A DNA stretch of 64,000 bases, taken from contig NC_081387.1 in the NCBI RefSeq assembly GCF_030684315.1, positions 26,530,647-26,594,646 of the forward strand. Reading direction: 5' to 3'. The position numbers were made by a program, and so were the translations under genes. Within the stretch, counting starts at the first letter, position 1. Each line of letters starts with the position of its first letter. Below are positions 8,735 through 58,774 of the stretch, piece by piece. Below the pieces are notes generated by a model. The model was not told the origin of the DNA. It saw only the letters and a program-made list of their open reading frames with translations, and did not search any database. The stretch is from Stegostoma tigrinum (lineage: Eukaryota).

Positions 8735-9140
8735 CAGTGATAAACACCAACTGGCTACAAAAAGTCATGACCAATACTCACTCATCTCAATCCACACGGA
8801 CAAGGAGAACCACCACTTCAACTGGGACAACACCAAGATCCTGGGACAGGCTCGGCAGAGACAAGCACGGGAATTCCTGGAAGCATGGCACTCCACAAAG
8901 CATGCTAATAAACACATTGAACTCGACCCCATATATATTCCACTGTGGATGAAACCCAGAAGTGACGCAATCCATCTCAACGGATTCCGGAGTTTAAAAA
9001 CAACACTGAAAAACATACCAACAATCGCACTGAGGATGTTACCAAGCACAGTAACGAAATGTCTGCGTAACAAGGAACGAGCTTGGTGAGCCATCCAACC
9101 TCAACACCTACAACCCGGGCTACAGATCTACTCCATAACC
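8735..9140 (+). mobile_element. Penelope (Poseidon-type) 3' fragment
   Basis: HQLATKSHDQYSLISIHTDKENHHFNWDNTKIL...REFLEAWHS, the same family as 13504-14068. Confidence 0.75.
9026..9067 (+). ncRNA. Minimal type I hammerhead ribozyme motif in a Penelope pLTR
   Basis: CGCA-CTGAGGA-T-GTTAC(caagcaca)GTAAC-GAAA-T-GTC-TGCG: catalytic core, 5-bp stem II, GUC triplet, stem I CGCA/TGCG. Confidence 0.7.
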
Positions 9141-10929
9141 TTGGTGATGTGATACAAGGTAACTGCTCTTTGTTTCAGTGGTGGAGAGAGTTAACGTTTA
9201 CGGTGGTGGATTCTGTGCTGGTCAAGCAACCTGGATGTTATCAAGTGTTCTTGGAGCTGTACAAATCCAAGCATTTGGGAAGCATTCCATCACACTCCAG
9301 ACCTCCAGCAGGACAACACTCCCTCAGCCCTGTACTGAACTTGGACTGATTCTTAGCCCACAACCTTAAGCAGCACTACTACGGAGCTTACAATTGTGTA
9401 AGTTAAGTGCAAAGTCTAAACCTTGATTCTCAATGATATGCACATTCATGAGTGGAAATACCAACATGCCGGAGAAATCTACAGGAATTTTAAAGAGATA
9501 AGCTGGTGTTTTGTATCATCTGTCACTACCACTGCACATGCTGAAGACTATGCTGCTAAAGGAGAACTATTTGAAAATTAGTCATTGCTGTAATGTAGGA
9601 AATGCAGCAACCTGTTTTTGCTGAACAAACTTCCAGAAATAGCAATTAGCAGGTTTTTAAAATGTTTTATCAAATAACAAACATTGTTCAGACATAGGGT
9701 AACTGCCATTGCACATCTACCCAAGAAGGTAGGCATGGAAACAGTTTAAAATCTCACCTGTAAAAACCGGTATTCAAAAGGTCAGCACTGCATGGCATCT
9801 GCCTAAATTTTTCTGCTTAAGTTTTTTGACTGAAACTTGAACTTATGCTGAAACATCGGAGGGCTAACAATTAAGCTGTAGTTGATCTCAGTAAAATGAC
9901 ACAACCACATACAAAAATGTCCATTCCAAATTTCCGAGCAAACAGAATTCCTGCAGGGTTAGCAAGAAGAATAAGGACAAATAGTTAACAGCACTGCTGA
10001 GTTTTCATGAGCCAGCTGTGAGGGGTCACACCTGAACCACATCCCACAGTTTAAACACCATAAACATTTAAAAACAAAATCTTAACATGATTCGCCTTGC
10101 AGCAGTTTACTGAATACTAGTGAGATTTTGAGCTGGCTGTGAATGCAGCCTTGCTCACCATTAAAAATTCAAATATTACAACCTTGAAATTTTGAAATAA
10201 AGTCAGTCAGTAATGGAATACAGCACTTACTAGTACTTTTCAGAAAAAAGTGCCTGTCCTCCAATTCAAACACTTCAATATCATTTTTACAATAGATATT
10301 TCTATTATGAACAAACAACATCAGTCCAAGCTTATTTTTAACAAAATAAAATCTAAAGTTTCCATTGTGGGAGTACTGCAAACGCAAGGTAACTGTTTTT
10401 TGGTTACCAACCTAAATTGAGGCAACCCTGCATGATCATCAAGCTAGACACAAGATCCCGTAGTTCTGAAGGATAGCAGGGGAATTCTCCCTGGTGTCTA
10501 TTGAGGCTTGCTGTGTACAACCTGGCAGACACATTTCCCACATTACGACAGTGGCCACAATTCAAAAGGCACAAAATTCAACCTGAAGCACTTTGGAAAG
10601 TACAGAGATTGTGCAAGAAGCTTTCCTATTTTGCAATAACCTGCCAGATACTGTGGTTAATTTCTGGCAATAAACCCATAATGTAAACAAACTATTGTTT
10701 ATCTCAATTTCTGAAAGCGGAATTTGAACTCAGTATCCAGAACTGAATCCAAACTTAGCTTTGCACTTCTCTTCAGTCTGTCATAGGTAAAACAAACCCA
10801 TGCCATGATACATTCTTCATCCACTGAAGCCCTGTAACATTAACCCTGCCAAGTTCAAAAACAGTCCCTCCACCAGCCAGGTGATGGCAAACCCTTCTCC
10901 AAGCCCAATGTCTTGTGCCCCCACCACTC

Positions 10930-11350
10930 CCAGATTAGTATCAGCACTCTGCTTCTTCCAGCCCAGTATCAGCTCCTGCATTACTCACAACCCAGTGGCA
11001 GCAGCCCCCCGCCCTTTCTCCCAACCAGTGCAGTGTCAGCGCCCTCCAGCACTCACAAACCAGTGACAATTCCTGTATAACGCTCAGCCCAATGGCAGCA
11101 CCCCTCCTTTCTCCCACCAGTCCAGTGTCAGCTCCCAGCCTGCTCGCAACTCAGTGACAGTTCCCCACTTCTCCCACCATCACAGTATCAGTTCCCTCCC
11201 ATCACTCCCAACCCAGTGTCAGGTCCTCTCCGCCACTCCCAGCCCTGTCAGCCAGTAAGTTCTCGCCTCTCCCAGGCCAGTGGATCCTCCTCTCTCCCCC
11301 AGCCGTGACATCGCCACCCTAAGCTCTACAGCTCTCCCTCTCCCAGCCAA
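10930..11350. repeat. Degenerate ~30-bp C-rich tandem repeat in TRIM intron 1
   Basis: Recurring units like actcccaacccagtgtcagctcc. Confidence 0.6.
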
Positions 11351-11497
11351 TTATCCTCTCCAGATGAATAATCTCCATCCAATCCTAAAGTCCACCTTTT
11401 CCAAGACCAATGTTCATTCCCCACACCATCCTGCACCATATCTGATCACATTGTGAGGTTTTTAAGGCCCAGATCAGTCACTACAGCAGACGCGCAC

Positions 11498-11604
11498 CTG
11501 CAGAAATAATGCTCGCATTGTAGCTCCACGGGGTCGGTGAAGATCGCCTGACAGAGGGGACAAGTCAAGTCCAAGGCCAGCTGTGACAGACTCTCCGCCG
11601 CCAT
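11498..11604 (-). CDS. TRIM gene, coding exon 1 (first half of C3HC4 RING: MAAESLSQLALDLTCPLCQAIFTDPVELQCEHYFC)
   Basis: ATG at 11604 in strong context (aagATGG), RING CxxC...CxHxxC, donor CAG|GTGCGC; joins exon 2 in frame to complete the RING. Confidence 0.9.
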
Positions 11605-13270: not shown

Positions 13271-13503
13271 AGACAGCTTGTGTACACCTGAGAACTGAAC
13301 TTCATAGCTTGACTAGTATGAGACTTGAGGGTTCCTGTGAAAAGGAGGGAAAATAGACATGAGGGATGTTGGATTAACTATGGTCCTGGCTGAATGTTCT
13401 ACTCCTGTTTCTAACTGAACTATCCATGCATTGTAAAATGTTGACTTGGTGCTGCCAGAAGTTCTAGGCACCTTTTTGGGAAGGGTGTGAAAGACAGTAA
13501 ATA

Positions 13504-14068
13504 CCACAAACCCACCAACACACTAAAACAGCAGCTAATGAACTTCAAAGACCCTATACAGACAACAAGCAAAGCCACAGTCATCTACAAAATACCTTGC
13601 AAGAACTGTGACAAACACTACATTGGACAAACTGGCAGAAAGCTAGCCACCAGGATACATGAACATCAACTAGCCACAAAACGACATGACCCACTATCAC
13701 TCGTATCCTCTCATACAGATGAGGAAGGACACCACTTTGATTGGGACAACACATCCATCCTAGGACAAGCCAAACAGACACGCACGAGAATTCCTAGAAG
13801 CATGGCATTCCAACCGGAACTCCATCAACAAACACATTGATTTGGAGCTCATCTACCATCACCTGAGGAAAAGAACAGGAAATGACATCACCAACACAAG
13901 GAATCCTAACCAGATAAATAGAAAGCGGGACATAACACCAGCGCTTCACTGGAGGCTCACTGATGTTACCTAGAATGATGACGAAACGTCTGAAAACTAA
14001 CCTTCCAGCTCAGCGAGCAAACTCTCATAAAGAACCTCAACCTGAGCTACAAATCTTCTCAACTTGCT
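13504..14068 (+). mobile_element. Penelope (Poseidon-type) 5'-truncated insertion with 12-bp TSD
   Basis: GIY-YIG motif VIYKIPCKNCDKHYIGQTGRKLATRIHEH; agacagtaaata at 13492-13503 and 14069-14080; damaged hammerhead near 13960-13992. Confidence 0.85.

Positions 14069-14635: not shown

Positions 14636-14640
<5 letters not shown>

Positions 14641-14680
<40 letters not shown>
14641..14680. repeat. (TC)20 microsatellite
   Basis: Read directly. Confidence 0.95.
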
Positions 14681-16890: not shown

Positions 16891-17236
16891 GTATAATTTT
16901 AAGTTTTGGGGGTGGTTTGGGGAATAAAAGGGAGTCTGTTTTAGTGAAGCTAATGGTTAGAACATTGTTTAGTTGTGGTCAAATCAGTGTTATCAGTTGT
17001 ATTGTAGTCAGAATAACAAATGTATGCTGTGTCTGACCCAACATGTAACCAACCTCTCACATACCTTCCCATCTTTGCAGAGCAAGGCCTACAAATTTTT
17101 AGGGATATGTGAACAAGTTTGTCTTTAAACTAACACCATTAAATCCTTATCAAGGTTGTCTCATTTCCATTACAGGAAGGTGAAAAGCATTTCATAAACT
17201 GGGGAAATGAAGAAGCACATTGTGCTCTACATAAAG

Positions 17237-17422
17237 ATAATAGGAACTGCAGATGCTGAAGAATCAGCTGGATGAACAGCAGGCCAAACAGGATCTTTCA
17301 GAGCAGAAAAACTGATGTTTTGGGCCTAGACCCTTCATCAGAAAGGGTCTAGGCCCAAAATGTCAGCCTTTCTGCTAAGATGCTGCTTGGCCTGCTGTTC
17401 ATCCAGCTCTACACTTTATCTC
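17237..17422. mobile_element. Mini fold-back (palindromic) Penelope pLTR insertion
   Basis: Two inverted pLTR ends meeting at the hammerhead region; imperfect TSD ttgtgctctacataaag / ttgtgctccatataagg. Confidence 0.75.
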
Positions 17423-17626: not shown

Positions 17627-17965
17627 CTAATCCAAAACCAGCCCAGCCTGTCTCTGCCTCCCCAACCTGTTCTTCCCCTTGCCCATCCCTTCCTCCCACC
17701 CCAAGCTGCACCTCCATCTCCTACCTACCAACCTCATCCCACCTCCTTGACCTGTCCGTCTTCCCTGGACTGACCTATCCCCTCCTACCTCCCCACCTAT
17801 ACTCTCCTCTCCACCTATCTTCTTTTCTCTCCATCTTTGGTCCACCTCTCCCTATTTATTCCAGAACCCCCTCTCTGAAGGGTCCAGGCCCAAAATGTCA
17901 GCTTTTGTGCTTCTGAGATGCTGCTGGGCCTGCTGTGTTCATCCAGTGTCACATTTTGGTATCTT
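17627..17965 (+). mobile_element. Penelope 3' pLTR fragment
   Basis: Matches the 3' end of the 1926-3539 element. Confidence 0.75.
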
Positions 17966-20199: not shown

Positions 20200-20430
20200 A
20201 TCCTGGGGAGATCCCGCTGGAAACTGCCGCCCCTTTCCAGAACCACCTTCTCCGGACTCGCTCCTTCCAGGACACACGCGCACTGTCGGCGACCCGCCTC
20301 GCTCTCATTGGTCGCCGCTGCAGAACCTTCCACAACATTCCGACCATTACCTCACCGACCCGCTTCCTCATTGGTCTGTACCACCGTCGATCATCCGCCT
20401 GCTGCCGCCCACACGCTCTACATAAAGGGC
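20200..20430 (+). promoter_or_regulatory. HSP70 copy 1 promoter
   Basis: HSE aGAAccTTCcaCAAcaTTCc 20322-20341, partial HSEs near 20235 and 20265, inverted CCAAT at 20307 and 20370, GC box, CATAAA 20421-20426. Confidence 0.8.
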
Positions 20431-23079: not shown

Positions 23080-24670
23080 AGTTGTCCAGTTTAACAGACC
23101 CTTCTGTCCCAAATCTCTGTGCAGACCGGATGTCCAAAATAAAACTAGTTCCATTTGCCAGCATTTGGCCCTTATTCCTCGAAACTTTTCCTATTTCTAT
23201 ACCCATTCAGATGCCTTTTAAATGTAGTAACTGCACCAGCCTTTGGCAGCTCATTTAATACATGCATTATCTTCTGCAAAATGTTTCCATTTAGGTCCCT
23301 TTTAAATTTTTCTCCTCTCACTCTTAAAGAATGTGCTCTAGTTTTCGACTACCCTAGTAACGAGACTTTGGCAATTCACCTTATTATGCCCCTCATGATA
23401 ATGATAAACCTCTCCAGGGGAAGATAGCTGCAGCCTGTTCAACCTCTCCCAATAGCTCAAACCGTACAATCCTGGCAACATTCTTGTAAACCATTTGTGC
23501 ACCCTTCTTGTTTAACAATATCTTCCTATAGCAGGGAGGCCAGAATTAAATGCTGTATTCCAAACTTACATAACCCATGACCTGTACAGCTGCAACATCT
23601 ATATTCAATTCACCAACCAATTAGGGCGAGTGTACCAACACCTCCTTCAGTACTGTCTACCTGTGACTACACCTTTTGCAAACTTACTTCCCATTCTGCC
23701 TATATTCAAATCCAGAGTATTTAAATAAATTTCAAAAAGCAGTTGACACAACACTGATCCCTGCAGCACACAGCTGGTCACAGACTTCCAGTTCAAAAAC
23801 CATCAGCTTGTCTCCTACCTTCAGCCAACTTTGTATCCAGATGGCTCGGTCTCCCATGTGATCTAACCTTGGTAACACATCTACCATGTGGAACCTTGTT
23901 GAACTCTATACAGACGATGTTTAACACTCTGCCTTCATCTGTCCTTGTCACTTCAAAAAGCCAGGTTAGAGAGACATGGTTTCTTACATACAAATGTGTC
24001 TTGACAATCCCAAATCAGTTCCTGCCTTTCCAAATACATGGTAAATCCTTGTCTTCAGAAGCCACTCCAACAACTTACCCACCAGTGACACAGGCTCACC
24101 CAGTCTATAACTCCCCGGCTTTTCCTTACAACCTTTCTGCAATAATGGCACAACAATAGCTACCCTCCAGTCTTCTGGCACCTCAGCCATGGCTATCAAT
24201 GATAAAATTATCTCAGCAAGGGACCCAGGAATCACTTAATAAAAACCAAAAGAACTGCAGATGCTGTAAATCAGGAACAAAAACAGAGTTGCTGGAAAAG
24301 CTCAGCAGATCTGGCAGCATCTGTGGAAGAGAGGAAGTTCTGAGGAAGGGTCACCAGACCCGAAACGGTAACTCTGTTTTCTCCCCCAAAGATGTTGCCA
24401 GACCTGATGAGCTTTTCCAGCAACTTTGTTTTTGACCGAGACTTGCCTAGTTTTGGGAGACACCTGTTCGGCTCCTGGGAATTTATCTACATTTATGCAT
24501 TTTAAGATGTCTAGCATCTCCTCCTTTTAATGTGGACTTTTCAAGATATCACTGTTTATTTCTCCAAGTTCTCTAGCTTCTACATCTTTCTCCACAGTAA
24601 ATAGAGATGTGAAATTAGTATCACCCATCTCCTGCAGTTCCCTACATAGATGGCCTTGCTGACCTTCACT
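23080..24670 (-). mobile_element. Decayed CR1 LINE
   Basis: VPEDWRVAIVVPLLQKGCKEKPGSYR, IEFNKVPHGR and a CR1 3' end. Confidence 0.75.
24238..24434. mobile_element. Fold-back pLTR element with a central hammerhead-like motif (24336-24373)
   Basis: Inverted arms; AGTT-CTGAGGA-A-GGGTC(acca)GACCC-GAAA-CGGT-AACT, with the cleavage-site U replaced by G. Confidence 0.7.
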
Positions 24671-24880: not shown

Positions 24881-27800
24881 TAGGAGCAAATTATTGCAGA
24901 TGCTGGAATCTGTACTGAAAACAACACACGCTTGAGATCAGAGTGGATCAGGCAGTATCAATGGAGAGAGTGCAAGCTAATGTTTCAAGTTTAGATGACT
25001 TTTCATTTGAAGCTGAAGTGTGTAGGGGGCAACATTTATGCTATAATGGGGGGGCGGGGTATGTGAGGGTGGTGAAGTGCTGGTGCAGAAGAGGTTTTGA
25101 TAGTTCTGTTTAAGTGATTAGCAGTAAGAATGGCAAAACAATGGTGTGTCTAGCTGCCAGACTTGAAAGAGCAGACAGTCCCACTGGGGTGGGGGGAGGA
25201 GATTCAAGACATGATAACAGAGAATGTAACAAGTAAAGCTAAAAGGAAGGGAAGAAATGTCCTGTCAGTTCTCAGCTTGCTGCAGTGTTCCAGTGAATCA
25301 CAGCACAGACTAGAGGAACAACATCTCATCTTCAGACTCAGCACTTCACAGCCTTCCTGATTTAACATTGAGTTAAACAGCATCAAATTATGAATCAACT
25401 CCCATTTCTTCCAATTCTTTTAGCTTTACTTGTTACATTCTCTGTCACCCTATTCTCTCTCCCCTTCCCCCACGCAGGTGGGACTGTCTGCTCTTTCAAG
25501 TCTGGCAGGTAGACACACCACTATTCTGCCATTCTCACGTTCCAATTTCCTACTATCTCTACAAGAACAATCAACATGCTTTCTCCACTGCCCCCTACAC
25601 TTCATCACATCCACACATCCACCAACTATAGGATACTATTGCCCCCTACAGACATGACTTTAATGACTACCGCCCAATAGCACTGATTTCAAAAATCATG
25701 AAGTGCTTCAAGAGGCTGGTCATGGTCCACATTGACACCAGTCTCCCAACTTGCCTCGATTCCTGACGGCTTGCCTACCAACATTACAGGGCCACAGATG
25801 ATGCCATATAGCTAGACCCGCACTCTTCCCTGGAATATCTGGGCAACAAAGACACCTACAACAGACACCTGCTCGTTTACTACAACTCTGCCTTCAACAC
25901 CATTATCCCCTCCAAACCACTCTGCCCACTGTTGATACTGCTCCACCCCCACAGCCAGCAGCTCTACAGTAAACACCAGCCCCCAGCCCTGCTGGGTCTT
26001 CACCATCCTGCCAGACCTCCCCCTCACTGAGGATGAATGGTCAGTCCTCAGTAAAGGACTTACCTTTTCCCCACCAAAAACCCAAACATTAATGAATACC
26101 GCTCACGCTGGGACATCAGTTTTTCTGCCACCTCCGCGTTTATTTCTTTAATTGTGAGTCTAACCCCCGTCTAATGACCTCTTCTCCCGCCTCCAACACA
26201 CCCCATCCTCCTGAATCTCCACCCCAAGGCCTCCAACCCTCCCTCGAACTCTTCATCTCCAACTGCTGTTGTGACACCAATCACCTCAACCTCTTCACCC
26301 CTCTCAACCACTCCAACCTCTCACCCACAGAATGTGCAGGCCTCTGCTCCCTCCGCTCCAATCCCAACATCACCATAAAACCCACGGAGAAGAGAGGTGC
26401 AGTTGTGGTATGGCGCACTGACCTCGACATCACCGAGGCCAGGTGCCAACTCTCTGACACCTCCTCCTACCACTCCCTTGATCATGACCCTACCCCGACC
26501 ACCAAACATCATCTCCCAGACCATCCACAACCTCATCACCTCAGGTGACCTCCTACTCACAGCCTCCAATCTCATCATTCCCCAACCCTGCACTGCCCGT
26601 TTCTATCTCCTTCCCAAAATCCATAAACCTGGCTGCCCTGGTTTACCATTGTCTCTGACTGCTCCTGCCCCACAGAACCTATCTCCACTTATCTTGACTC
26701 CATTTTCCCTCCCCAGTCCAGGAACTCCCCACCTACGTCCACGACACCATTCATGCCCTCCACCTCCTCTAAAATTTCCAATTCCACTTTACTAACACCT
26801 TCCACCCCAACCTTAGGGTCACCTGGACCATCTCTGATACCTTTCTCTCCTTCCTGGACCTCTCTGTCTCCATGTCTGGTAACCACCTGGAAACTGATTT
26901 CAGAAGAAGGGTCCAGACCCGAAATGTCAGCTTTCCTGCTCCTTTGGTGCTGCCTGGCCTGTTGCATTCATCCAGCTCCACACCTTGTTATCTCAGACTC
27001 CAGCATTGGCAGTTCTGACCATCTCAAAACTGTGTGACCTTGGTCTCCACTCTGCCCTCTGCACTGGATCCTCAACTTCCTGACCCATAGGCTGTATAGG
27101 TAACTGCACTTCCTCTACAATAACACTCAATGCTGTAGCCTCCCCAAGGATGTGTCCTCAGCCCCCTATTGTACTTGTACACCTATGACTGTGTTGCCAA
27201 ATTCTAAACAGAGGCATCTGCAAGTTTGCTGATGACACCACCATTCTGGGTGGATATCTAACAACGTCGAGTCAAAATACAGTAGGACGATAGAGAGCTT
27301 GGTGACGTGGTGCAACAGAAAACAATTTATCTCTCAACATCAGCAACACTAAAGAACTGATCATCGGCTTCAAAATGAAAGGAGAACACGCCCCCATCTA
27401 AATAACAGAACTGAGGTAGAGAGAGTGAACAGCATCAAGTTCCTTGGAGCAACAATAACTCACAACCTGTCCAGGAATTCCCATGTAAATGTGACAGTCA
27501 AGAAGGCCCTTTTTCCTCAGACAGCTCAGGAAATGTCCATACCGTCCCTCATCAACTTCTACAGATGCGCAATTGAAAGCATACTGTCCAGGTGCATAAT
27601 GGCCTGGTATGACAATTGCTCTGCTCAAGACCATAAGAAACTACAGAAAATGGTGTGCACAACTCAGATCATCACAGAAGGAAGCCAACCTTCCATCTAT
27701 GGACTCTACTTACATGGCTCGTTGCCACGGAAAGGTGGCCAACATCATCAAAGACCCATCACACCCTGGTAAGAACCTCCCACAACCTCTACCATCAGGC

Positions 27801-29790: not shown

Positions 29791-29822
29791 CACATCCCAT
29801 GACTAAACTTGACAAAATGGCT

Positions 29823-30035
29823 CAGAGCTAATAGGAACTGCGGATGCTGAAGAATCCATAATAACAAAATGTGAAGCTGGATGAACACAGCCGGCCAAGC
29901 AGCATCTCAGGAGCAGAAAAGCTGGTGTTTTGGGCCTAGACCCTCTGATGAAGGGTCTAGGCCCGAAACGTCAGCTTTTGTGCTCCTGAGATGCTGCTTG
30001 GCCTGCTGTGTTCATCCAGCTTCACACTTTGTTAT
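29823..30035. mobile_element. Mini fold-back Penelope pLTR insertion with 15-bp TSD
   Basis: cttgacaaaatggct at 29808-29822 and 30036-30050; long inverted arms. Confidence 0.85.
29943..29974 (+). ncRNA. Minimal hammerhead ribozyme motif with intact core
   Basis: ct-CTGATGA-A-GGGT(ctag)GCCC-GAAA-C-GTC-ag; ACGT palindrome in place of stem III; stem I only about 2 bp. Confidence 0.6.
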
Positions 30036-31045
30036 CTTGACAAAATGGCTGTCTGGGGCGTTTGGCAGCTATAAAAAGACTTTTACAGCCAGAATTGTGG
30101 TCTCCATACAGAATTACTAGATAAGATAATGAAAGGTCCTGTGGGGGTCATATGAGGGTCGTAGTGGAAAGAAATATTAGGGAATTTACTTGGGTTTCTG
30201 TAAACAGACTGTTCTAAGTACATAAGCATTTTAATAAGGGGCATTGTTGAAAGGCCTAATTAAGCTAAGGGGGCCAAGTTAATTATTTTGTAAAAAGTAG
30301 AAAAAAAAGTCTGCTCCTACAGTATTTTTTAGGTTATTCTAAGTTAGAAATGCAACCAAAATATCAGTGTGAAAGGGTAAGTTGAATTCCTTGAGCAAAT
30401 GTTTGTAGACAGTAGAAGAAGCTCATGGCATCATTAGGTAAGATAAAGCAATAAATGATGTGAATACAACCTCTGGAAGTTCACCAGCAGAAGAAGATTG
30501 CAAAAGAACTTTATAACAAGGGAGTTCAGGACATGGGACAGCTAAACAATTGGAGCTTAAATGAAGATGTGGACAATTCGAACAAAGTCTTGCATCCAAA
30601 GTTCAAGGGAAGATTGTTAGAAGTACTGAAAGATATCCCAAAGACAGATGATGGCGATATCAGGTAGACATCATGATATTAGGGAGGACATAGGGCTGTC
30701 CATAGAGTTGTTCATCATCGATGGTGTGTTTGCTGGATCGGATGTATAGATAAGGAGGATATGGATATCAATAACATCAATGTTGCATATAATTATTATT
30801 ATTATTATGGAAAAAGTATAAAAAATGTTGTATTCAGCTGGGGTAAGTTACAGCATCATTGACCACTCCTCAGTTCTGAGTTGCATTTAAGAAGGCAACT
30901 GGGCCCCACGTGAAAGCCAGATTCGGAGCAGTCTCTTGGCCTCTCCCAAATGTGGTTAAAGAGCTTTGAATGAAGGTCATTTGTACTGTTGAACACAGAA
31001 CTCAAGGCTCCTCTTTGATATTTCTCTCTACAACAATGGTAATGA

Positions 31046-31980: not shown

Positions 31981-32819
31981 GAATAAATGGAACTGGAACG
32001 AGACAGCGAGGATGCCACAAAAAGGACTGTATGAATAGGCAGATACAAACTGCGCTCTAGATTAGATCTTTGTTAACAAACATAATTTGAAAAGTCATGG
32101 GGTTTAGGTGGAATTTGGAGGTGAGGCCATTGAAGTTTTAAAGCAGTTCCTACTCACTCTGAGTGAGTGATAACCCAACTGCAAAGATTCTTCTAAGGAT
32201 GCCTACCTTGAAGAAGTTACCCTCCTCCCTCCAGAAAGACCTCAATGGTTCTCTCTCCCACTGCAACCCTCTGGTAATCTCTTTGTAACTTCTCTCACAC
32301 CTGCTCCACTTTCTGCCTTCTGTCAACACACCACCACCACCCTCTATTTATTTGAGCACTCTTTCTCCTTCCCCATTTCTGAAGAAGCATCCTGAACTGA
32401 AATAACAAGGTGTAGAGCTTTCCTGCTCCTCTGATGCTGCCTGGCCTGTTGTGTTCATCCAGCTCCACACCTTGCCATGTCTTATGGAGAGGTTCTTGAT
32501 AGGCATGGGATTCAAGGGATATCAGGGATTAACATCTGATCAAAGAGAAAATTAAACAGGTTTAACCCGAAACTCAATACAATAATGTGCTGACAAGACG
32601 TTTCTCAAACAGTGTGTTTCATTCCCCTACCTCCCAAGTTTTCCGTGCAGCACTGTCCCATTCCTGGACACTCCCTGACAATCCTGGACATTTGGTGAAC
32701 CCCCTCCTCACAGCTCACACCGGCCCGCCCCCCGCCGTCACTCCGGGATCCAGACCCTGCCCCCAGTACATCCCACTCCCATCCTTTTCCCCGGTAGAGG
32801 GGGGGGGCTGGATCATGGG

Positions 32820-41060: not shown

Positions 41061-44000
41061 GAATGACAGGCCCTTCCTTCCTAGGATCATTCCTGTGATC
41101 CAACTGAACATAACCTTCAATGCCAGCACATCCTTTCCAACTTGACTGCCAGTGGCATGCAGCAGCATCTAGGTGCGTGCATCTAAATTCAAAAATGGAA
41201 CATTTTTGGCACGAAAATGGATCCAACAAAGGCAAATTTTGCTTATATATCACGACATATACACATATTTCAGGCATCAGGAGAGTTCAAAAACTGAATG
41301 AACCCTCATTGACCTCTAGCTGAAAGAAATCACACTGAGGTCTTCCCTCACTGCGCCTTAGTGGCAGTTGCACCAGGCCTTGGAGAATCACACAGCATGT
41401 ATCCTGGACCTTGCAGTGTGCATCACTCTGTTGAAGTCAACTCCTTGCTCGAGAAGACCAACAAGGACACACTGTGACTGAGTTGATGGTCCTCCTGGCG
41501 CAGTCGATCTTTCTTTTACTACATCAGATAACATCAGATAAGGTCCCGTGCGGTCATAATGGGGTCGCAGTGAGGAGAAACATTAGCTCTTCTTCTTCAG
41601 ATACTGCTTGGCCTGCTGTGCTCATCCAGCTCTACACCTTGTTATCTCCGATTCTCCAGCATCGGCAGTTCCAACTATTTCCCACCAAGTAAATTCCCTA
41701 ATGTTTCTTCTAAAGAAGAAGGGTCCAGACCCGAAACATCAGCTTTCCTGCTCCTCTGATGCTGCTTAGCCTACTGTGTTCATCCAGCTCTACACCTTGT
41801 TCTATCAGGGAATTTGCTTGGGTTTCTTTCAACAGGCTGTTCTAAATACATAAGCATTTTAATAAGGGGCGTTTTCAAAAGGTTTAGTTCGGCTAAAGGT
41901 ACCCAGTTCATTATTTTCTTAACAACTCAAAGAAAAGTCTGATCCTCCAGTATGCTCAACTTTTTAGATCATTCTAATTCAGAAACAAAATCAACAAATT
42001 AGTGAGAAAACGTTTGTTGAATTCCATGACACATGTTTGTTCATCGTAAAAGAAGCGCATGGCATGATTAGGCATGATAAAGCTAAATAAAGTAAACACG
42101 ACTTCTAGAAGACCACCAGCACAGGAAGGTCACAAAGGAACTTTATACAGAGGGAGTTCAGTTCAGGGGGCAGGTAAACGATTGCAGTTTAAGTGAAGAG
42201 GTGGATAATTTGAACAAATTCTTACATCCAGAGACCCAACGGAAGACTGGCAGACGTCTTCAAAGATATCTCAAAGGCAGAGGTTTCTGGTAATCATCAC
42301 AAGATTGTGAGATTTCCTCAGAGTTGTTCATTATTGATTGCATTTCCTGGATTGGATGTACAGATAAGGGGTATGTGGCTACCAGTGACATCAATGTTTC
42401 ATAGAATTTGTTTGACACAAGAAGTATAAAAATGTTGTATTCAGCTGGGAAACGTACTGTGCCATTGACCACTTCTCTGAACTGAGCTGGGTTTAAGGCG
42501 GCAACTGGGCCCCACATGAAACCCAGATTTGAGCAGTCTCTGGCCTCTCCCACACGTGGTGAAACAGCTCTGAATGAAGGTCGTTTTTAACTGTTGAACA
42601 CAGAACTCAAGATTCTTCTTTGATATTTCTCGCTAATACAATCATTATGATTGACACACTCTATCCAGGGCATCCTTCAGGTAGTGTCCGAGGCTGAGAC
42701 GTGTACAGCGACCTCATCAATGACCTTCACTCCATCAGAAGGTCAGAAGTGGGAATATTCACTGACGATTGCACAATGTTCAACACCATCATGTTTCCTC
42801 AGGTACTGAAGTAGTCCATGTCTAATGAAGCAAGAACTCGACAATATCCAGGCATGGGCAGCCAACTGGCAAGTAACATTCATGCCACACAAATGCCAGG
42901 CAATGACAACCTACAATAAGAGACCATCTCACCATCACCCCACGACATTCATACAACATAGAAAAGTACAGCACGGTACAGGCCCTTCAGCCCACGATGT
43001 TGTGCCGTGGAATAATCCGAATTCAATGGCATTGCCATCAAGGGATTTACCACTATCAACATTCTGGGGGTTACCATTGACCACAAGCTGAACTGAACTA
43101 CCACGAAACTACAGTGGCTACAAGAAAAAGTCAATGTTCCGACAGCCAGTAACGCACCTTCACCAAAGCTTGAAAACCGTCTGTAAGGCACAGGTCAGAA
43201 ATATGACTGATTACTCCCCGTTTGCCTGATTGAGGGCGGCTCAAAACACTCACAAAATTTGCAGAATCTATGAAGAAGCAGTCTCCCCCCTTGGCCACCT
43301 GAGCATACCATTTACAAGATGTACTGCAGAAATTCATCAAAGCTGCAAGGGCAGCTCCTCACAAAATGCAAACCAATTGCATCTAGAAGGACAAGGGCAG
43401 CGGATACATGGGAACTCCACCACCGGCAAGTTCCCCTCCAAGCCATTCATCATTCAAACTTCAAAATAAATCACCCATCCTTTCGTGTCACTGGGTCAAA
43501 ATCCTGGGACACCCCCACATCTCGCAGCCTGTTGACCTACCCACAGCACCTTCTCAAGGAGAACTGGGGTTGGAACAGCCAGCCACATCCCAGGAACACA
43601 TTTAAAAACAGAAATAAAACTGGACTCGACCAGAGAGGTGCTCAGAGATAATGGGAACCGCAGATGCTGGAGAATCCAAGATAACAAAGTGTGAAGCTGG
43701 ATGAACACAGCAGGCCAAACAGGAGCACAATGGATTGTAACTCGAAATGATAACTTTGTTAACAAACATAATTTGAAAGGTCGTCGGGGGATGGGTGGTA
43801 AATGGAGAGGGGGCCATTGAATTTTAAAGCAGAGATGGAACGATTCTTGTTAGATTTGGCATTCAAGGGATTTCAGGGATTAACATCTGATCAAAGAGAA
43901 AATTAAACAGGTTTAAACCGAAACTCAATACAATAATGTGCTGACAAGACGTTTCTCAAACAGTGTGTTTCATTCCCCTACCTCCCAAGTTTTCCTTGCA

Positions 44001-46463: not shown

Positions 46464-47580
46464 AAGACTGTCAACTCTGTAACTCTGAAATCCAGACCTG
46501 AAGTTTAGACTGGGACTCATTGAGCACCAAGATCTCTCTTCAGTGATATGTTTGCAGTCATTTCTGCCTGGTGTAACAGTGAAGTTGACTGTGACCTTGC
46601 AGCCTGTTCACATTTGTAGTTTTTCATCCTTTTTGCTGAATTAATTTTCAAACCCATGGAAGTAGATCAATATGTTTGTCATCTTGTATATTTTTGATAT
46701 GGACTCGGTTTTAATGTAAAAAAAGCATTGTTTAGAAATGCTTTTTTTTGAGAAACTAATAAAGTTTCCATGATTTATTTTCTGCATGTTTCTTGCTGGT
46801 TTATCATTTGATGCAAGTGCTATGAATTATTTTTGTACTGCAAAGTGTTTCTGACATTTTCACACCAGCGTTGTGAGTCATTTTTAGCTCCAAACTAAAT
46901 AATAGAAACCATCACAGCACAGAAACAGGCCCATCTGCCTGCTATGTTGTGCCAAACATCATGCCCAAGTTAAAATAGTTCCTTCCGCCTGCCAATGGTC
47001 CATAACTCTCCATTCCATGTTTATTCATGTTCCAGGTACCTGCCACTCTCTTTGCCGTCCTTACCTGGTTTGGCTGACATGTGAATCCAATACCTGAACA
47101 ATGTAGATGATTCTTAACTGTCCTCTTGCCAAATAATGACAGACAATAAAAACTGACCCAGCCAGCAATACCCGCATCTTGCAAACGAACAAATTGAGTT
47201 CCAGGCTGCAGTCAATGCAATTCCACAGGGTGTTGTAGCCTGCTGTCTGTATCATAACCTGCACCAGGGTCTGACTACTCCCCAACCCTGTCTTCTTTCA
47301 CACGTTGTCAACATTTATGTCCCAAAATGTCTTGGCTCCTCTGTTCTAATTGGTCACCCTTCAGGCATTTAGTCATTTGTTCAGATATCTCTTTCTGGTT
47401 CTATCACAACATGCCTAATAATATGACAGCGAAGTGCCTCGAAATGGTGTACAATGCTAAGCTACACAGATACAGGTTGTTTTGTTCTGATCATCGCAGA
47501 ACAGTCAGGACCAGCACTAACACAGCTTATGATGCCTATTGCTGAGAGATTATATGAAATCAAAACAATAAAACCAAAGA

Positions 47581-49300
47581 TAACAAGGTGCAGAGCTGCA
47601 TGAACACAGCAGGCCAAGCAGCATCAGAGGAGTATGAAGGCTGACGTTTCATGCCTAGACCCTCCTTCAGAAATGGGGGAAGGGGTTTTAAATAGAGAGA
47701 GAGGGGGAAGTGGATAGAAGATGGACAGAGGAGACAGACAGGTCAAAGAGGTGGGGATGGAGCCGGTAAAGGTGAGTGTAGGTGGGGAGTTAGGGAGGGG
47801 ATAGGTCAGTCCATGGAGGACAGACAGGTCAAGGGGGTGGGATAAGGCTAGTAGGCAGGAGATGGGGGTGGGGCTTGTGGTTGGAGGAGGTGATGTGTGG
47901 TAGGAAGGACAGGTTAGGGAGGCGGGGACAAGCTGGGCTGCTTTTGGGATGCGGTAGGGGAGGGAAGATTTTGAAGCTTATGAAGTCCACATTGATACCA
48001 TGGGGCTGCAGGATTCCCAAGTGGAATATGAGTTGCTGTTCCTGCAACCTTCGGGTGGCATCGTTGTGGCACTGCAGGAGGCCCAGGATGGGCATGTCAT
48101 CTAAGGAATGGGAGGGGGGGGGGTTGAAATGGTTTGCGACCTGGAGGTGGAGTTGATCAGTGCGAACCGAGCAGAGGTGTTCTGCAAAGCGGTCCCCAAG
48201 CCTTCGCTTGGTTTCCCCGATGTAGAGGAGGCCACAACAGGAACAGTGGATACAGTATGCCACATTAGCAGATGCGCAGGTGAACATCTGCTTGATGTGG
48301 AAAGTCTTCTTGGGGCCTGGGATGAGGGTGAGGTGGGAGGTGTAGGGGCACAGTGTCTCCTGCATTTCCTGCAACTCATCCCTCACACTCCCTCCCCGCA
48401 ATAAGAACCAAGACAAATCCCCCTCGTCCGCACGTACCACCCCACCAACTTCTGGATCCATCACAGCATCCTCTGACACTTCTGCCATTTGCAATCCGAC
48501 CCCACCACCAAAGGCATTTTTCCCTCCCCACCCTTATCTGCTTTCCGGAGGGCCCACTCTCTCCGTGACTCCCTTGTCCGCCCCACACTCCCCTCCAGCC
48601 CCACAACACCTGGCACATTTCGCTGCAACCGCAGGAAGTGCTACACCTGCCGTTGCTTGGTTCGCACTAGACAGCTCTATCTCCCAGTCGCGAACCATTT
48701 CAACTCCCCCTCTCATTCCTTAGATGACCTGTCCATCCTCCTGCAGTGCCAGAACAATGCCACCTGAAAGTTGCAGGAATAGCACCTCATATTTCACTTG
48801 GGAACGCTGCAGTTCATTGGTATCAATGTGGGCTTCACAAGCTTCAAAATCTTCCCTCCCCCTACTGCATCCCAAAACCAGCCCAGCTTGACTTCACCTC
48901 CCTAGCCTGCCCTTCCTCCCACCTATCCCCTCCTCCCACATCAAGTCCCACACCCCATCTCCTACCTACTAGCCTCATCCCACCCCCTTGTCCTGTCTGT
49001 CCTCCCTGGGCTGACCTATCCCCTCCCTAACACCCCACCTACACTCACCTTAACTGGCTCCATCCCCAACTCTTTAACTTGCCTGTCTCCTCTCCACCTA
49101 TCTTCTCCTCTATCCATCTTCGATCCACCTCCCCCTCTCTATTTCAGAATCCCCTTCCCCTCCCCCATTTCTGATGAAGGGTCTCGGCCCGAAACGGCAG
49201 CTTTCCTGCTCCTCTGATGCTGTTTGGCCTGCTGTATTCATCCAGCTCTGCACCTTGTTATCTCAGATTCTCCAGCATCTGCAGTTCCTCCTATCTCAAC
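47581..49300. mobile_element. Fold-back Penelope insertion (- arm ~47581-48350, + arm ~48351-49297) with 12-bp TSD
   Basis: GIY-YIG LYIGETKRRLGDRFAEH; taaaaccaaaga at 47569-47580 and 49301-49312; hammerhead motif at 49171-49200 (GTC changed to GGC). Confidence 0.85.
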
Positions 49301-52010: not shown

Positions 52011-52149
52011 AATATATGTAAATATAGTCTTGTAAAGGTAAGAAATGCATTTGGATTGCTCTTATTCTCCCTCCCCCATTTCTGAAGAAGGATCCCGACC
52101 CAAAACACCAGCTTTCCTGCTCCTCTGATGTTGCCTGGTCCAACTCAAT

Positions 52150-53470: not shown

Positions 53471-53474
53471 ACAG

Positions 53475-54020
53475 TAACAGAGTGGCATGCTGAGGACAAA
53501 CATGTGGGCATGCAGGCAAGACACTGTGTTAAAATAGGCAGCTACAGGAAGGTTGGGGTCACGGGTGTGCACATATTGGAAGTGTTCTGCAAAGCGGTCA
53601 CCCAGTTTGTGTTTGGTTACTCCAATTTGGAGTAGGCCACTTTGGGTCCAGTGAATACAATATACAAGATTGGAAGAGCTATAGGTGAATTGCTGCTTCA
53701 CCTGGAACGACTGTTTAAGCCCTTGGATGGTGAGCAGGGAGGACATGAAGGGACAGGTGTTGGTGGTTGTGAAATGGACTAGTGTATCCCAGAGGTACTA
53801 ATCCTTGTGAAATGGAGACAGGGAGAGTGAAGGGAAGATGTGTTTGGTGGTAGCATTTTACTGGAGTTGTCTGAAATGACGGAAAATGATCCTTTGAATG
53901 TGGAGGCTGGTGGGATGAAACATGACAACAAGGGGAACACAACCACACTGCTGTGAGTGATGGGAAGGTGGAAGCACAGGTGATAGGTCATCATCCAACT
54001 GAGGGCAATGCCACACAACC
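53475..54020 (-). mobile_element. Old Penelope fragment
   Basis: LVYCIHWTQSGLLQIGVTKHKLGDRFAEH. Confidence 0.7.
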
Positions 54021-54175: not shown

Positions 54176-54292
54176 CACCTGATGAATGAGCTGCACTCTG
54201 AAAGCTTGTAACTTCAAATAAACCTGTTTGACGATAACCTGGTGTTGTGTAACTTCTGATATTGTCCACCCCAGTACAACACCAGCACCCCT
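54176..54292 (+). mobile_element. Short repeat beginning with a decayed hammerhead-like motif
   Basis: cac-CTGATGA-a-tgag(ctgca)ctct-GAAA-gctt-gta followed by a sequence I recall as a common shark repeat terminus. Confidence 0.45.
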
Positions 54293-54752: not shown

Positions 54753-55279
54753 TCAGATCCAACCGGAGCAGATTCTCAGAAACTGGTTTTCCAACCAAGT
54801 CATGAAGAAAGGATAAAGTTTCTCAGTGAATTTATTCCCAGTAAAGGTGTAGAGATGGGACTTGGTGTCCGCATTGTAAAATGAAACTGTCCCAGATTCA
54901 TAACTGAGATAAACTCCCACGTTCCTGGGGACCTGATTGACAGGGAGAGTGAATTCAGGGAAGTTTACATAAAATTGATTCCAATCCCGCCAAATGATCC
55001 AGAATCCGTTCTCCGGGTTCAGGCTGACACGTCTCTTCCTCTCCACAGACTCTGCAGCTACTCCCAGACTCCAGCACTGATTCCCCATCACCTCCACCAC
55101 CCAGTAATGTCTCCCTGATGTGAATCCCTCTGATCCCAGGGCACAGGGACGGAACCAGTCTGTAAACCTCTTCCAGGTGTCAGGGAGGCTCCTGGGAATC
55201 TCAGTCTGTCCCAAACTCTTCAGGTCCTCAGAGACCTCGAGCTCGGGATTTGCTGTTTCCACATCCAGGGTCACAGAGA
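54753..55279 (-). CDS. PRY-SPRY (B30.2) terminal exon of a TRIM/butyrophilin-like gene
   Basis: Acceptor ttttttccttccAG (55280-55281), phase 1; SVTLDVETANP...RF...GFTSGRHYWVVEV...VGVYLSYESGTVSFYN...LYPFF; TGA at 54753; AATAAA (minus strand) at 54585-54590. Confidence 0.9.
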
Positions 55280-55761
55280 CTGGAAGGAAAAAACAGAGAA
55301 TTAGAGACAGTCCCTGTGTGTGTGCGTGTGGAGGAGCGTGGGCACATCTGTGTGCCCTTGTGAATCACAGCACAAACTGGAGGAACAACATCTCATCTTC
55401 TGACCAGGCATTTTACAGTTTTGTGGACTTGATATTGGGGGAACATGTGTGAGTGAGGTTGTGTGGGTCGGTATGGGTGGGATTGTGTTTGAGCAGTGTA
55501 TATGTTCATTGGGTATGTGTATGTGTTGGGTGGATGTGTGTATGTGTACGTGGGGAGATGTAGACGTAGGTGAGTCTTGGGAGAATGTGTGGCTGGGGAG
55601 ATGTGCCTGTGTATGTGTGTGTGGGGTGGGAAGTTTGTGTTGAGCACAAGTATATAGGTCAGCATCATATTCTGAAGTGCAGTTTGAGGCAGCTAATAAA
55701 TGTGGATCTTGAGAGCTGCAAATTTTTTTAAAAATTCAAAAATAAATTATTCAAATTAATG

Positions 55762-57110
55762 TAGGAGCAAATTACTGCAGATGCTGGAATCTGTTCTGAA
55801 AACAACAAATGCTGGATATAACAGCCAATCAGACAGCATCCATGGAGAGAGAGCAAGCTAATGCTTCGAGTCGATGTGACGCATCAACAGAGCTGAAGTG
55901 AAGAGTGTAGGAGGGAGCGTTTATGCTCTAGTTTGGAGAGGAGTGGGGTGGTCTGGATGCTGGGAGCAGTGTGCCGGTGAAGAAAAGATGTTGACAGTTC
56001 AGATTCAGTGAACCAAATGTGAGAATGGTAGAACAATGGGAGATAACAAGAACAACAGATGCTGGAGGCAGAGTCTAACTCAGTGTGGAACTGCAGGAAC
56101 AAAGCTGGTCAGGCAGCATCAAAGAAGTGGAAAAGTTGATGTTTCAGGTCGGGACCCTTCTACAGAACAGTGGTGAGTCTCCTGCCAGACTTGAAAGGGT
56201 AGTTAAGTGGGGGGGGAGAAGAGGACATGATAACAAGTGAAAAGAAAGGGAAGAAATGTTCCCAATTTAAAGGTGTTGAACTCAGTATCAAGTCCACAAA
56301 ACTGTAAAATGACTGGTCAGGAGATGAGATGTTGTTCCTCCAGTTTGTGCTGTGATTCACTAGAACACTGCATTATGCCAAGGGACAGACATGTGGGCAT
56401 GCGAGCAGGACGCTGTGTTAAAATGACCTACAGGAACGCCAGGGTCCTGCTTGCATACAGACCGGACGTGTTCCGCAAAGTAATCACCCAGTTTGTGTTT
56501 GGTTTCTTCAATATAGAGAAGGCCACATTGGGTGCAGTGAACACAATAAACAAAATTAGAGGGGGTACATGCAAAATGCTGCTTCACATGGCAAGACTCT
56601 TGGAGCCCCTTGGATGGTGAGCAGGTAGGAGATGAAGGTGCAGGTGTTGCTATGGGAAGGTGCTATGGACACAGGGAGCGGTGTTGGTGGAATGGACTAG
56701 GGTGTCCTGGAGGGAAAGACCTCTGTGAAATGCTGACGGGGGAGTGAGTGAAGATGTGTTATGGTGGTGTTCTGCTGGAGTTGTCTGAAATGGCTGGGAA
56801 TGATCCTTTGTGGAGGCTGGTGGGATGAAAAGTGAGGACAAGGGGAACCTGATCATGCTGCTGCAAGTGATGGAAAGGGACAAAGGTGGATACTTCGGGT
56901 GATAGGTCGGATGTGGTTGAGGGCCCTGTCAACCACAGTGGGTGGGAAATCACAGTAATGGAAGAAGCAAATCATGTCAGCAGCACTGTTTTGGAAGGTG
57001 GCATCATCCGAATAGGTGTGATGTAGGTGAGGGAACTGGAAGAATGGGATGGGGTCCTGACAGGACGTGGGGTGTGATGTGCTGTAATGAAGGTAGCTAT
57101 GAGAGTCAGA
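55762..57110 (-). mobile_element. Old Penelope copy
   Basis: FVYCVHCTQCGLLYIEETKHKLGDYFAEH and a pLTR matching 24881-25020. Confidence 0.7.
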
Positions 57111-57390
57111 GCTATGGGATTCAGGCCTCTTATAGCTCCATAAATTTCTAACTCTACTGCTTTTATGTTATTCTAGCCTTTTTCAAGCTTTCTCCCTCAG
57201 TTTACAACCACTGGAATATTGCTACAGCTGCCTCAGTGAGAACAAGCTCCTGTTTGTTCAAGTCCCACTGACATTCATTATTTCCCAAACTCATGTGGGA
57301 GTGAAATGTGTTTTCACAAAACTGAAAGAGGAATTGCTGACTCTGATCTCAAAATACCAATTAAATCTCCCGAAACCCAATGTCATCAAA

Positions 57391-57563
57391 AGGAACAAAC
57401 ACAGAAGTTGCAGGAAAAGCTCAGCAGGTCTGGCAGCATCTGTGAAGAAAAGTCAGAGCTAACATTTTTTCTTCACAGATGCTGCCAGACCTGCTGAGCT
57501 TTTCCTGCAACTTTTGTTTTTGTTCCTGATTTACAGCATCCGCAGATCTTTCAGTTTTTATTT
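57391..57563. mobile_element. Near-perfect hairpin element (arms 57391-57451 and 57467-57527, plus tail)
   Basis: ~60-bp inverted repeat, same family as 24238-24434. Confidence 0.8.
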
Positions 57564-57612
57564 AGTAATTGAAAAGAAAGCAGTTGGCACTGACTGGACT
57601 GATGTACTGGGA

Positions 57613-58774
57613 TAATAAAATGTGAAGCCGGATGAACACAGCAGGCCAAGCAGCATCTCAGGAGCACAAAAGCTGACGTTCCGGCCTAGACCCTTCATCA
57701 GAGAGGGGGATGGGGGGAGGGAACTGGAATAAATAGGGAGAGAGGGGGAGGCGGACCGAAGATTTAGAGAAAAGAAGATAGGTGGAGGGGAGAGTATAGG
57801 TGGGGAGGTAGGGAGGGGATAGGTCAGTCCAGGGAAGACGGACTGGTCAAGGAGGTGGGATGAGGTTAGTAGGTAGGAGATGGAGGTGCAGCTTGGGGTG
57901 GGAGGAAGGGATGGGTGAGAGAAAGAACAGTTTAGGGAGGCAGAGACAGGTTGGACTGGTTTTGGGATGCAGTGGGTGAAGGGGAAGAGCTGGGCTGGTT
58001 GCGTGATGCAGTGGGGGGAGGGGACGAACTGGGCTGGTTTTGGGATGCGGTGGGGGGAGGGGAGATTTTGAAACTGGTGAAGTCTACATTGATACCATTG
58101 GGCTGCAGGGTTCCCAAGCGGAATATGAGTTGCTGTTCCTGCAACCTTCGGGTGGCATCATTGTGGCACTGCAGGAGGCCCATGAAGGACATGTCATCTA
58201 AAGAATGGTAGGGGAAGTTGGAATGGTTTGCGACTGGGAGGTGCAGTTGTTTATTGTGAACCGAGCGGAGGTGTTCTGCAAAGCGGTCCCCAAGCCTCCG
58301 CTTGGTTTCCCCAATGTAGAGGAAGCCACACCGGGTACAATGGATACAGTATACTGTATATAGCTATTCCCCTCCCCCCACTGCATCCCAAAACCAGCCC
58401 AGCCTGTCTCTGCCTCCCTAACCTGTTCTTCCTCTCACCCATCCCTTCCTCCCATCCCAAGCCGCACCTCCATTTCCTACCTACTAACCTCATCCCACCT
58501 CCTTGACCTGTCCGTCTTCCCTGGACTGACCTATCCCCTCCCTACCTCCCCACCTACACTCTCCCCTCCACCTATCTTCTTTTCTCTACATCTTCAGTCC
58601 GCCTCCCCCTCTCTCCCTATTTATTCCAGAACCCTCACCCCATCCCTCTCTGATGAAGGGTCTAGGCCCGGAACGTCAGCTTTTGTGCTCCTGAGATGCT
58701 GCTTGGCCTGCTGTGTTCATCCAGCTTCACACTTTATTATCTTGGATTCTCCAGCATCTGCAGTTCCCATTATC
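57613..58774. mobile_element. Young fold-back Penelope insertion with 15-bp TSD
   Basis: actgatgtactggga at 57598-57612 and 58775-58789; ~400-bp inverted arms; 39-bp triplication near 57950-58065. Confidence 0.9.

What the first reader, a model, noticed from the sequence alone, without database searches (positions are those of the whole stretch)
9026..58680. Hammerhead ribozyme motifs in several Penelope-like families, with compensatory stem II variation
Seen: the core CTGA(N)GA-N-[stem II]-GAAA-(C/T)GT(C/T) recurs at 9026-9067 (GTTAC/GTAAC, 4-bp stem I), 29945-29972 (GGGT/GCCC), 24340-24369 (GGGTC/GACCC), 49171-49198 and 58650-58677. Decayed forms occur at ~13960, 17320(-), 26900, 41710, 54179, 55865(-), 56145(-) and 57680(-). 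Stem II differs between families but stays paired. Known: Penelope-like elements carry minimal type I hammerheads with a palindromic stem III that are thought to act as dimers. Inference: a few copies (9026, 29945) may still self-cleave if transcribed; most were inactivated, often by CpG decay of C-GAAA-CG.
Basis: partly seen in the sequence, partly recalled or inferred. Interest (0 to 1): 0.72.

Follow-up and report, generated by a model that had tools for sequence, protein, structure and literature searches.

The report
Penelope retrotransposon hammerheads and their footprints
These are real copies of a tiny self-cutting RNA motif already known from Penelope-type jumping genes, present about 190,000 times in this genome and mostly broken in this window; the copies' ends suggest that the jumping gene's RNA likely starts right at the motif and is usually copied uncut, with a rare trace of likely cutting.

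Summary
Real, and a known kind. All 13 named sites are remnants of minimal type I hammerheads in pseudo-LTRs of Penelope-like elements (PLEs), from at least five families, each tied to a GIY-YIG 3' end. Only 9030 and 29945 keep a perfect core; 24340, 49171 and 58650 carry non-CpG core changes. Helices I and II covary across families (7 of 8 pairs), and one family swaps the stem III palindrome ACGT to AGCT. The genome holds 191,993 cores against 920 for the control. 29945 is a poor candidate: it has a 2-bp helix I and lies in a predicted -73 kcal/mol hairpin. 9030 is the best one. In 900 kb of unselected DNA, copy 5' ends pile up just upstream of the core, 4 to 9 times the in-core rate, and not at the cut site. 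This likely marks the transcription start, with uncut RNA as the usual template. A small class restarts exactly at the cut site after other element sequence, a possible record of cleavage in vivo. No RNA data were available. This scan has reported the same motif and both readings many times on other DNA, this genome included.

The parts
9026..9067 (+). Family A1 minimal hammerhead (core 9030-9063, predicted cut after 9063); intact core, 4-bp helix I, 5-bp helix II, two tolerated CpG-type changes; best candidate for activity in the window
8743..9139 (+). 5'-truncated PLE end (GIY-YIG C-terminus, pLTR, tail) carrying the 9030 motif
13445..14062 (+). Family A2 PLE end: GIY-YIG frame 13445-13837, hammerhead at about 13960-13990 with a 3-nt deletion in the core region
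17235..17419 (.). Head-to-head family B insertion with 8-nt flanking repeat; minus-strand core 17314-17341 has G12 to A and G16.2 to A (CpG decay)
24247..24434 (.). Head-to-head family C insertion; core 24340-24369 (+) has U16.1 to G; the arm begins 4 nt upstream of C3
26897..26993 (+). Short family B2 copy starting 4 nt upstream of the core; core 26901-26928 has U4 to A
29822..30039 (.). Head-to-head family B1 insertion with about 15-nt flanking repeat; perfect core 29945-29972 (+), 2-bp helix I, predicted to be buried in a long hairpin; the minus arm lacks CTGATGA
41706..41801 (+). Decayed family B2 copy
47577..49295 (.). Inverted family B2 PLE insertion with 12-nt flanking repeat; cores at 47637-47676 (-, decayed) and 49171-49198 (+, U16.1 to G)
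54179..54207 (+). Family D hammerhead with AGCT stem III palindrome; catalytic bases intact, but helix II has lost its first pair and helix I is 2 bp
55854..55896 (-). Decayed family G hammerhead (helix II GAGTC/GACTC type)
56083..56171 (-). Decayed short B-type copy; core 56138-56165 has A6 to T and CpG changes
57611..58780 (.). Inverted family B1 PLE insertion with 15-nt flanking repeat and a GIY-YIG frame (57932-58363, -); both cores (57669-57707 -, 58650-58677 +) read GGAACGTC
1958..3565 (-).
447..548 (+).
17632..17965 (+).
24973..25016 (-).
32345..32474 (+).
52069..52140 (+).
57391..57551 (.). Head-to-head family C tails without a full core (the Rfam mir-4659 look-alike)

Best explanation
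The motifs are minimal type I hammerhead sequences in the pseudo-LTRs of at least five endonuclease-bearing Penelope-like families; the element's RNA likely begins about 4 nt upstream of the core, and the reverse transcriptase likely starts 65 or 100 nt downstream of the cut site and usually copies uncut RNA, leaving short or head-to-head stubs that then decay. Shown: the motif, its place between the GIY-YIG end and the next ORF start, cross-family covariation, two 3' end clusters, and the 5' end pile-up. Inferred: that the pile-up is the transcription start; that cleavage needs a second copy pairing through the 4-nt palindrome and, above all for family B, help from the element's protein; and that cleavage removes the capped leader of about 32-34 nt from a minority of RNAs. 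Individual window copies are mostly dead; 9030 is the one most likely able to cut if transcribed and given a partner.
For: Full unit pLTR-ORF-pLTR of about 3.5 kb in L041; RT and GIY-YIG Pfam hits, all below gathering score. GIY-YIG-type sequence lies about 110-440 nt upstream of cores in A (15 of 30 loci), C (2 of 30), G (3 of 30) and D (1 of 30, weak). Covariation on 16 real copies: 93% of cells paired, 7 of 8 pairs with double changes, score 0.76 against 0.23 shuffled and at most 0.25 slid. AGCT-palindrome cores: 5,989 against 132 control. In family B, N7 varies (T66/A26/G1 of 93) while the non-CpG core bases from U4 on vary by at most 5%. 5' ends per nt at risk: B 0.049 at -8..+2 of C3, 0.013 inside the core, 0.016 at the cut +-3, 0.001-0.005 in the body (170 copies); C 0.117, 0.0125 and 0.0096 (55 copies) (Poisson p 3e-12 and 6e-17). 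No shared exon lies upstream of these ends. 3' ends cluster at +61..68 (72 of 169) and +97..105 (48 of 169), like the two internal RT starts in PMC11167929. That paper also found its hammerhead protein-assisted and uncut RNA the main substrate. Both arms of 57611-58780 read GGAACGTC, which fits a ribozyme-dead template having been inserted.
Against: No RNA data. The initiator-like matches (TCAGTTC, CCATTTC, pyrimidine run) were judged by eye against recalled consensus motifs and arise easily in pyrimidine-rich DNA. Boundaries come from local alignment and are good to about 2-3 nt. Covariation counts related sequences, and the family A versus B/C/G pairs may not be homologous columns; the two pair-level measures did not beat shuffles (145/500 and 60/500). 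The catalytic dimer fold is never the predicted minimum: 7-12 kcal/mol above it for A, C, G and the D copy L223, and about 32 for B. Family B, the most abundant, has only 2 bp of helix I. No intact, currently active master copy was identified. PMC3846280 proposes antisense templates and self-priming, which would give the ends another meaning.
Confidence: 0.62

Rival explanations
1. Unit-length processing and circle model (PMC4209133): the hammerheads cut tandem precursors efficiently, monomers are ligated to circles, and the circles serve as templates. Re-ligation at the cut site rebuilds the motif, so inserted copies look uncut.
For: A full unit holds two hammerheads 3.5 kb apart. A small excess of starts falls exactly at the cut site: 27 of the first 100 listed of 3,357 (hand tally).
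Against: A circle has no end upstream of the core, so it does not explain the main pile-up. The +1 class is roughly 1-2% of family B copies (3 of 170).
Confidence: 0.12
2. In family B the motif is a vestige: the short helix I and the CUGAUG:CGUCAG self-pairing have switched it off, and the family spread without a working ribozyme.
For: Helix I is 2 bp in B1 and B2, while family G keeps AGCT/AGCT. The hammerhead dimer fold scores -5.5 against -38.0 kcal/mol for the minimum. PMC8557442 notes that PLE clades without the motif proliferate well.
Against: The core is kept across B subfamilies while N7 and one helix II pair change in tolerated ways. Sense restarts occur at exactly +1 in 7 of 25 contexts against 1 of 45 at other starts. 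D. virilis Penelope also has a 2-bp helix I (PMC4209133).
Confidence: 0.18
3. The 5' pile-up is an RT stall or an integration preference (structure, bound protein, or microhomology with AT-rich targets), not an RNA end.
For: Ends are also raised inside the core (0.013 against 0.001-0.005 in the body). Microhomology explains many junctions at -4/-3 and some at +1.
Against: The peak lies on the far (5') side of the structure, after RT has already passed it. It recurs in B, C and D with different upstream sequence, and the rate drops about ninefold beyond -8 in B.
Confidence: 0.15

Closest known systems
Minimal hammerheads (min-HHR) in pLTRs of metazoan PLEs (Cervera and De la Pena 2014, PMC4209133; read parts 1-2 of 4)
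   Same: Type I topology, no loop 3, palindromic 15.2/16.2, extra base between 9 and 10.1 (53 of 53), G10.1-C11.1, short helix I, many dispersed single copies, several families per genome.
   Different: Scale: 191,993 plus 5,989 core-pattern hits here, against about 4,000 (coelacanth) and 9,000 (Xenopus). Their descriptor also required helices; with helix II >=4 and helix I >=3 my extrapolation is about 32,000. Helix II is shorter (4-6 bp). The passages read name no cartilaginous fish and do not analyse copy ends.
PAc, Poseidon of Anolis carolinensis (PMC11167929; read parts 1-2 of 4)
   Same: Two internal RT start sites define the tail, the hammerhead lies upstream of them, and uncut RNA is the main substrate.
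   Different: In PAc the ORF starts inside the ribozyme; in family B the long ORF starts about 135 nt after the cut site. That paper found no RNA-seq ends at the cut site, and the parts read do not map the RNA start.
Drosophila virilis Penelope (PMC4209133; PMC2377424, passages)
   Same: 2-bp helix I; transcription starts inside the pLTR from an internal promoter.
   Different: There a 75-bp intron begins 46 bp after the start and ends at helix I. Here no shared upstream exon was found, and the ends suggest the start is at helix I itself.
Non-LTR retrozymes of animals (PMC7229834, passages; bioRxiv 10.64898/2026.07.22.740005, part 1 of 5 and passages)
   Same: Type I hammerheads in short non-coding repeats at very high copy number (126,247 in axolotl), proposed to derive from PLE pLTRs.
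   Different: Retrozymes are head-to-tail tandem arrays. The window's copies are single stubs or head-to-head pairs with flanking repeats, continuous with PLE bodies.

Membership tests
Minimal type I hammerhead (min-HHR) | Catalytic boxes CUGANGA and GAAA..UH around helix II | tested here: met
   Family level. Copy level: strict hits at 9030 and 29945 only; 54179 keeps the boxes but not helix II
Minimal type I hammerhead (min-HHR) | Helix II paired with compensatory change; G10.1-C11.1; extra base after A9 | tested here: met
Minimal type I hammerhead (min-HHR) | Palindromic 15.2/16.2 without loop 3 | tested here: met
   CG in A, B, C, G and GC in D
Minimal type I hammerhead (min-HHR) | Helix I of about 4-5 bp closing the motif | tested here: inconclusive
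   Met in A1 (5), C (4), G (4), D1 (3-4); A2 has 3; not met in B (2 bp)
Minimal type I hammerhead (min-HHR) | Self-cleavage after H17 as a dimer | not testable with these tools
   Only indirect genomic junction evidence
EN+ Penelope-like element | Single ORF with RT and C-terminal GIY-YIG | tested here: met
   for B (Pfam scores below gathering cut-off, frames broken); GIY-YIG end only for A, C, D, G
EN+ Penelope-like element | Partial tandem pLTR, inverted 5'-truncated copy, optional 30-40 bp tail | tested here: met
   L041, L055; 3' ends about 36 nt apart; window pairs
Neptune/Nematis-type PLE (family B) | CX2-5CxxC linker between RT and EN (PMC8557442) | tested here: met
   CNRRKCYTC-type linker; no tree was built, so Neptune versus Nematis is not resolved
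Penelope/Poseidon-type PLE (family A) | No linker zinc finger | tested here: inconclusive
   Absent in the one long open frame (L067); other copies were frameshifted; no tree
Non-LTR retrozyme | Head-to-tail tandem units, each with a hammerhead | tested here: not met
   No such array among the window's copies; not surveyed genome-wide

The most novel reading that the evidence does not exclude
The PLE transcript begins with the ribozyme itself, and the genome records both states of one switch. Hundreds of thousands of stubs end at the capped start of uncut RNA, and a few hundred to a couple of thousand restart exactly at the cut, showing that a hammerhead with only a 2-bp helix I, predicted to misfold on its own, does cut in the germ line, presumably when the element's protein folds it. 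The ribozyme would then be a self-decapping regulator rather than a monomer-releasing enzyme.
Probability: 0.33. Interest if true: 0.65.

Novelty: new member of a known kind. Interest (0 to 1): 0.38.

Why it matters
What PLE hammerheads do is still open: PMC8557442 calls their function unclear, and PMC11167929 found cleavage dispensable in vitro and no RNA ends at the site. A genome with about 190,000 cores gives enough insertion junctions to map template ends without RNA, and it yields two exact predictions: caps about 4 nt upstream of C3, and rare cyclic-phosphate ends at position 17. It also warns that these stubs mimic microRNA hairpins. The individual motifs in this window are unlikely to matter to the host.

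Tried and rejected
Rfam scan: no hammerhead model hit; the miRNA, snoRNA and U6 hits are all below gathering score and were rejected. One search used an off-frame ORF as query; it still returned PLE loci, but its stop counts are meaningless. One search had one misplaced pair; one search replaces it. Alignment A1 put family D one column off, so D was left out of the pair count and the model and was assessed junction-anchored instead. Splicing at helix I as the cause of the pile-up was rejected: no common upstream exon in 16 B and 17 C non-inverted flanks (3 of 120 and 1 of 136 flank pairs scored >=30; the B pairs appear by eye to be missed inverted arms). The cut-site footprint in family C is uninformative, because helix I itself gives microhomology (71 hits). 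In the 900-kb sample the cut site +-3 was not above the in-core rate (p 0.26). A simple fold-back origin for head-to-head pairs was dropped in favour of two-ended insertion, since 4 of 6 window pairs have flanking repeats. Lunse et al. on dimer cleavage is not held, so only its summary in PMC6765202 was read. No supplements were read; alignments in the supplements of PMC4209133 and copy-end plots in those of PMC11167929 may bear on novelty. Seven paper searches listed no paper on cartilaginous-fish PLE hammerheads or on copy ends at the ribozyme; the library lacks most subscription journals.
Full report
Setting. The window is G000:C44:26530647-26594646 in a 3.2-Gb, CpG-depleted genome (CpG o/e 0.29). 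That it is a shark or relative is my recollection of these repeat types and agrees with earlier scan notes; I did not test it.

Observation. A strict descriptor (both boxes, helix II of at least 4 bp, pairable 15.2/16.2, UH) gives 2 hits, 9030-9063 and 29945-29972, against a mean of 0.02 in 200 shuffles. 24340 and 49171 have U16.1 to G and 58650 has A13 to G. A covariance model from 16 outside copies recovers 12 of the 13 named sites and 8 more at E<=1; 54179 is a fifth family not in the model. Genome-wide, the core pattern with ACGT occurs 191,993 times (reversed control 920) and with AGCT 5,989 times (control 132). Family-specific patterns give 104,586 (B), 2,345 (C), 409 (A with GGTAAC) and 67 (G/H). 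In 900 kb taken at round coordinates the strict descriptor finds 53 (shuffles 0-2), of which only 9 have a helix I of 3 bp or more.

What carries them. Locus L041 holds a whole, broken family B unit: pLTR with hammerhead, about 135 nt of leader, an ORF with RT, a cysteine linker and GIY-YIG, then a second pLTR, about 3.5 kb in all (Pfam hits below gathering score). GIY-YIG-type sequence lies shortly upstream of cores in 15 of 30 A loci, 2 of 30 C, 3 of 30 G and 1 of 30 D (four further hits looked like neighbouring B elements and were not counted). Most C, D and G copies are too short to include it.

Covariation. On 16 hand-picked real copies (A1, A2, B1, B2, C, G, H), 93% of cells pair, 7 of 8 pairs show double changes and the score is 0.76 against 0.23 shuffled; the two pair-level counts do not beat shuffles, and relatedness inflates the rest. 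G10.1-C11.1 is invariant, and family D changes the palindrome to AGCT. Within B no double-sided change was seen: N7 varies freely, pair 4 goes U.G to U-A, and the other large variation in the core sits at the two CpGs. 60 of 93 tail-anchored B copies spanning the core keep every catalytic base, and 46 also keep a pairable palindrome. Helix I is 5 bp in A1, 4 in C and G, 3-4 in D1, 3 in A2 and only 2 in B. Folding predicts that B pairs CUGAUG with CGUCAG and that its catalytic dimer lies about 32 kcal/mol above the minimum, against 7-12 for A, C, G and D copy L223. 29945 is also predicted to be buried in a -73.1 kcal/mol hairpin formed with its inverted arm.

Copy ends. I anchored copies on the tail, so without selecting for the core, in the 900-kb sample. 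For B (170 copies) 5' ends per nt at risk are 0.049 at -8..+2 of C3, 0.013 inside the core, 0.016 at the cut +-3, 0.005 at -9..-40 and 0.0013 beyond. For C (55) they are 0.117, 0.0125 and 0.0096. D (9) and G (5) point the same way but are too few. In 16 of 31 head-to-head B pairs the longer arm stops at -6..+1. No common exon precedes these ends. 3' ends form two clusters about 36 nt apart, matching the two internal RT starts reported for the Anolis element (PMC11167929). In all six head-to-head pairs in the window one arm has the short and the other the long tail, and four have flanking repeats of 8-15 nt. I infer that RT starts in the tail and runs to the RNA's 5' end about 4 nt upstream of the core.

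Cut-site trace. After seeing earlier scan notes I tested this directly. 3,357 B1 tails lack the upstream AAA of the core. A hand tally of the first 100 gives apparent starts of -4:17, -3:7, -2:0, -1:9, +1:27, +2:5, +3:6, +4:12 and +5 or later:17. Six of the 27 and many of the -4/-3 starts are microhomology junctions with an inverted arm. I read 70 of the 100 contexts (the first 30, plus 40 that I chose). 7 of 25 starts at +1 follow other sense-strand element sequence, against 1 of 45 elsewhere once in-core deletions are set aside (Fisher p 0.002; 0.006 if two similar junctions count once). This fits RT reaching a cut 5' end and jumping templates. Against it: the class is about 1-2% of copies, the broad window around the cut is not above the in-core rate (p 0.26), A-rich flanks inflate +1, and family C is uninformative.

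Comparison. The motif meets the sequence features of metazoan min-HHRs (PMC4209133), except helix I length in family B, where D. virilis offers a precedent. Catalysis is untested. It is a new member of a known kind; the copy-end reading was not found in the papers searched, but this scan has reached it repeatedly on other DNA. Papers seen: PMC4209133 parts 1-2 of 4; PMC11167929 parts 1-2 of 4; bioRxiv 10.64898/2026.07.22.740005 part 1 of 5 plus passages; passages of PMC8557442, PMC7229834, PMC6765202, PMC2377424 and PMC3846280; no supplements. Hammerhead numbering, the roles of U16.1 and A13, and initiator consensus motifs are recalled knowledge.

Verdict. Real and well supported, ordinary in kind, unusual in number, with a testable mechanistic lead. 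Interest 0.38.

Noticed in passing
window 20426-22492, 33046-35112, 44397-46463 (+): Three intact intronless Hsp70 ORFs (643 aa from the first Met), 95-99% identical in DNA, inside a tandem segmental repeat; a heat-shock-element-like TTC/GAA array lies upstream of copies 2 and 3.
   Followed up: partly
window 5773-6141 (-) and 54753-55361 (-): RING/B-box and PRY-SPRY exons of two different TRIM-like genes flank the Hsp70 cluster. The minus-strand hammerheads at 55893, 56165 and 57703 would be sense in the second gene's pre-mRNA if it extends that far, but all are decayed.
   Followed up: partly
window head-to-head pairs at 17235, 24247, 29822, 47577, 57391, 57611: Every pair has one arm ending at the near tail site and one at the far site, which suggests that the two DNA strands are primed at different RT start sites.
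   Followed up: partly
L041 7490-7370 (-); L055 about 1760-1880 (+): A short upstream ORF starting about 19 nt after the cut site appears in frame with the main PLE ORF and is separated from it by a single TGA in the two pLTR-ORF junctions read.
   Followed up: no
L286 and L315: Two junctions join unit position about +172, just inside the ORF start, to the cut site; possibly a third preferred RNA end or RT site.
   Followed up: no
window 53095-53797 (-), with related pieces at 48137 and 56428: LINE-type reverse transcriptase fragments unrelated to the hammerhead families.
   Followed up: no
window 57422-57496: A head-to-head family C stub scores 47 bits against Rfam mir-4659 (gathering 92): these stubs can pose as microRNA precursors.
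   Followed up: yes
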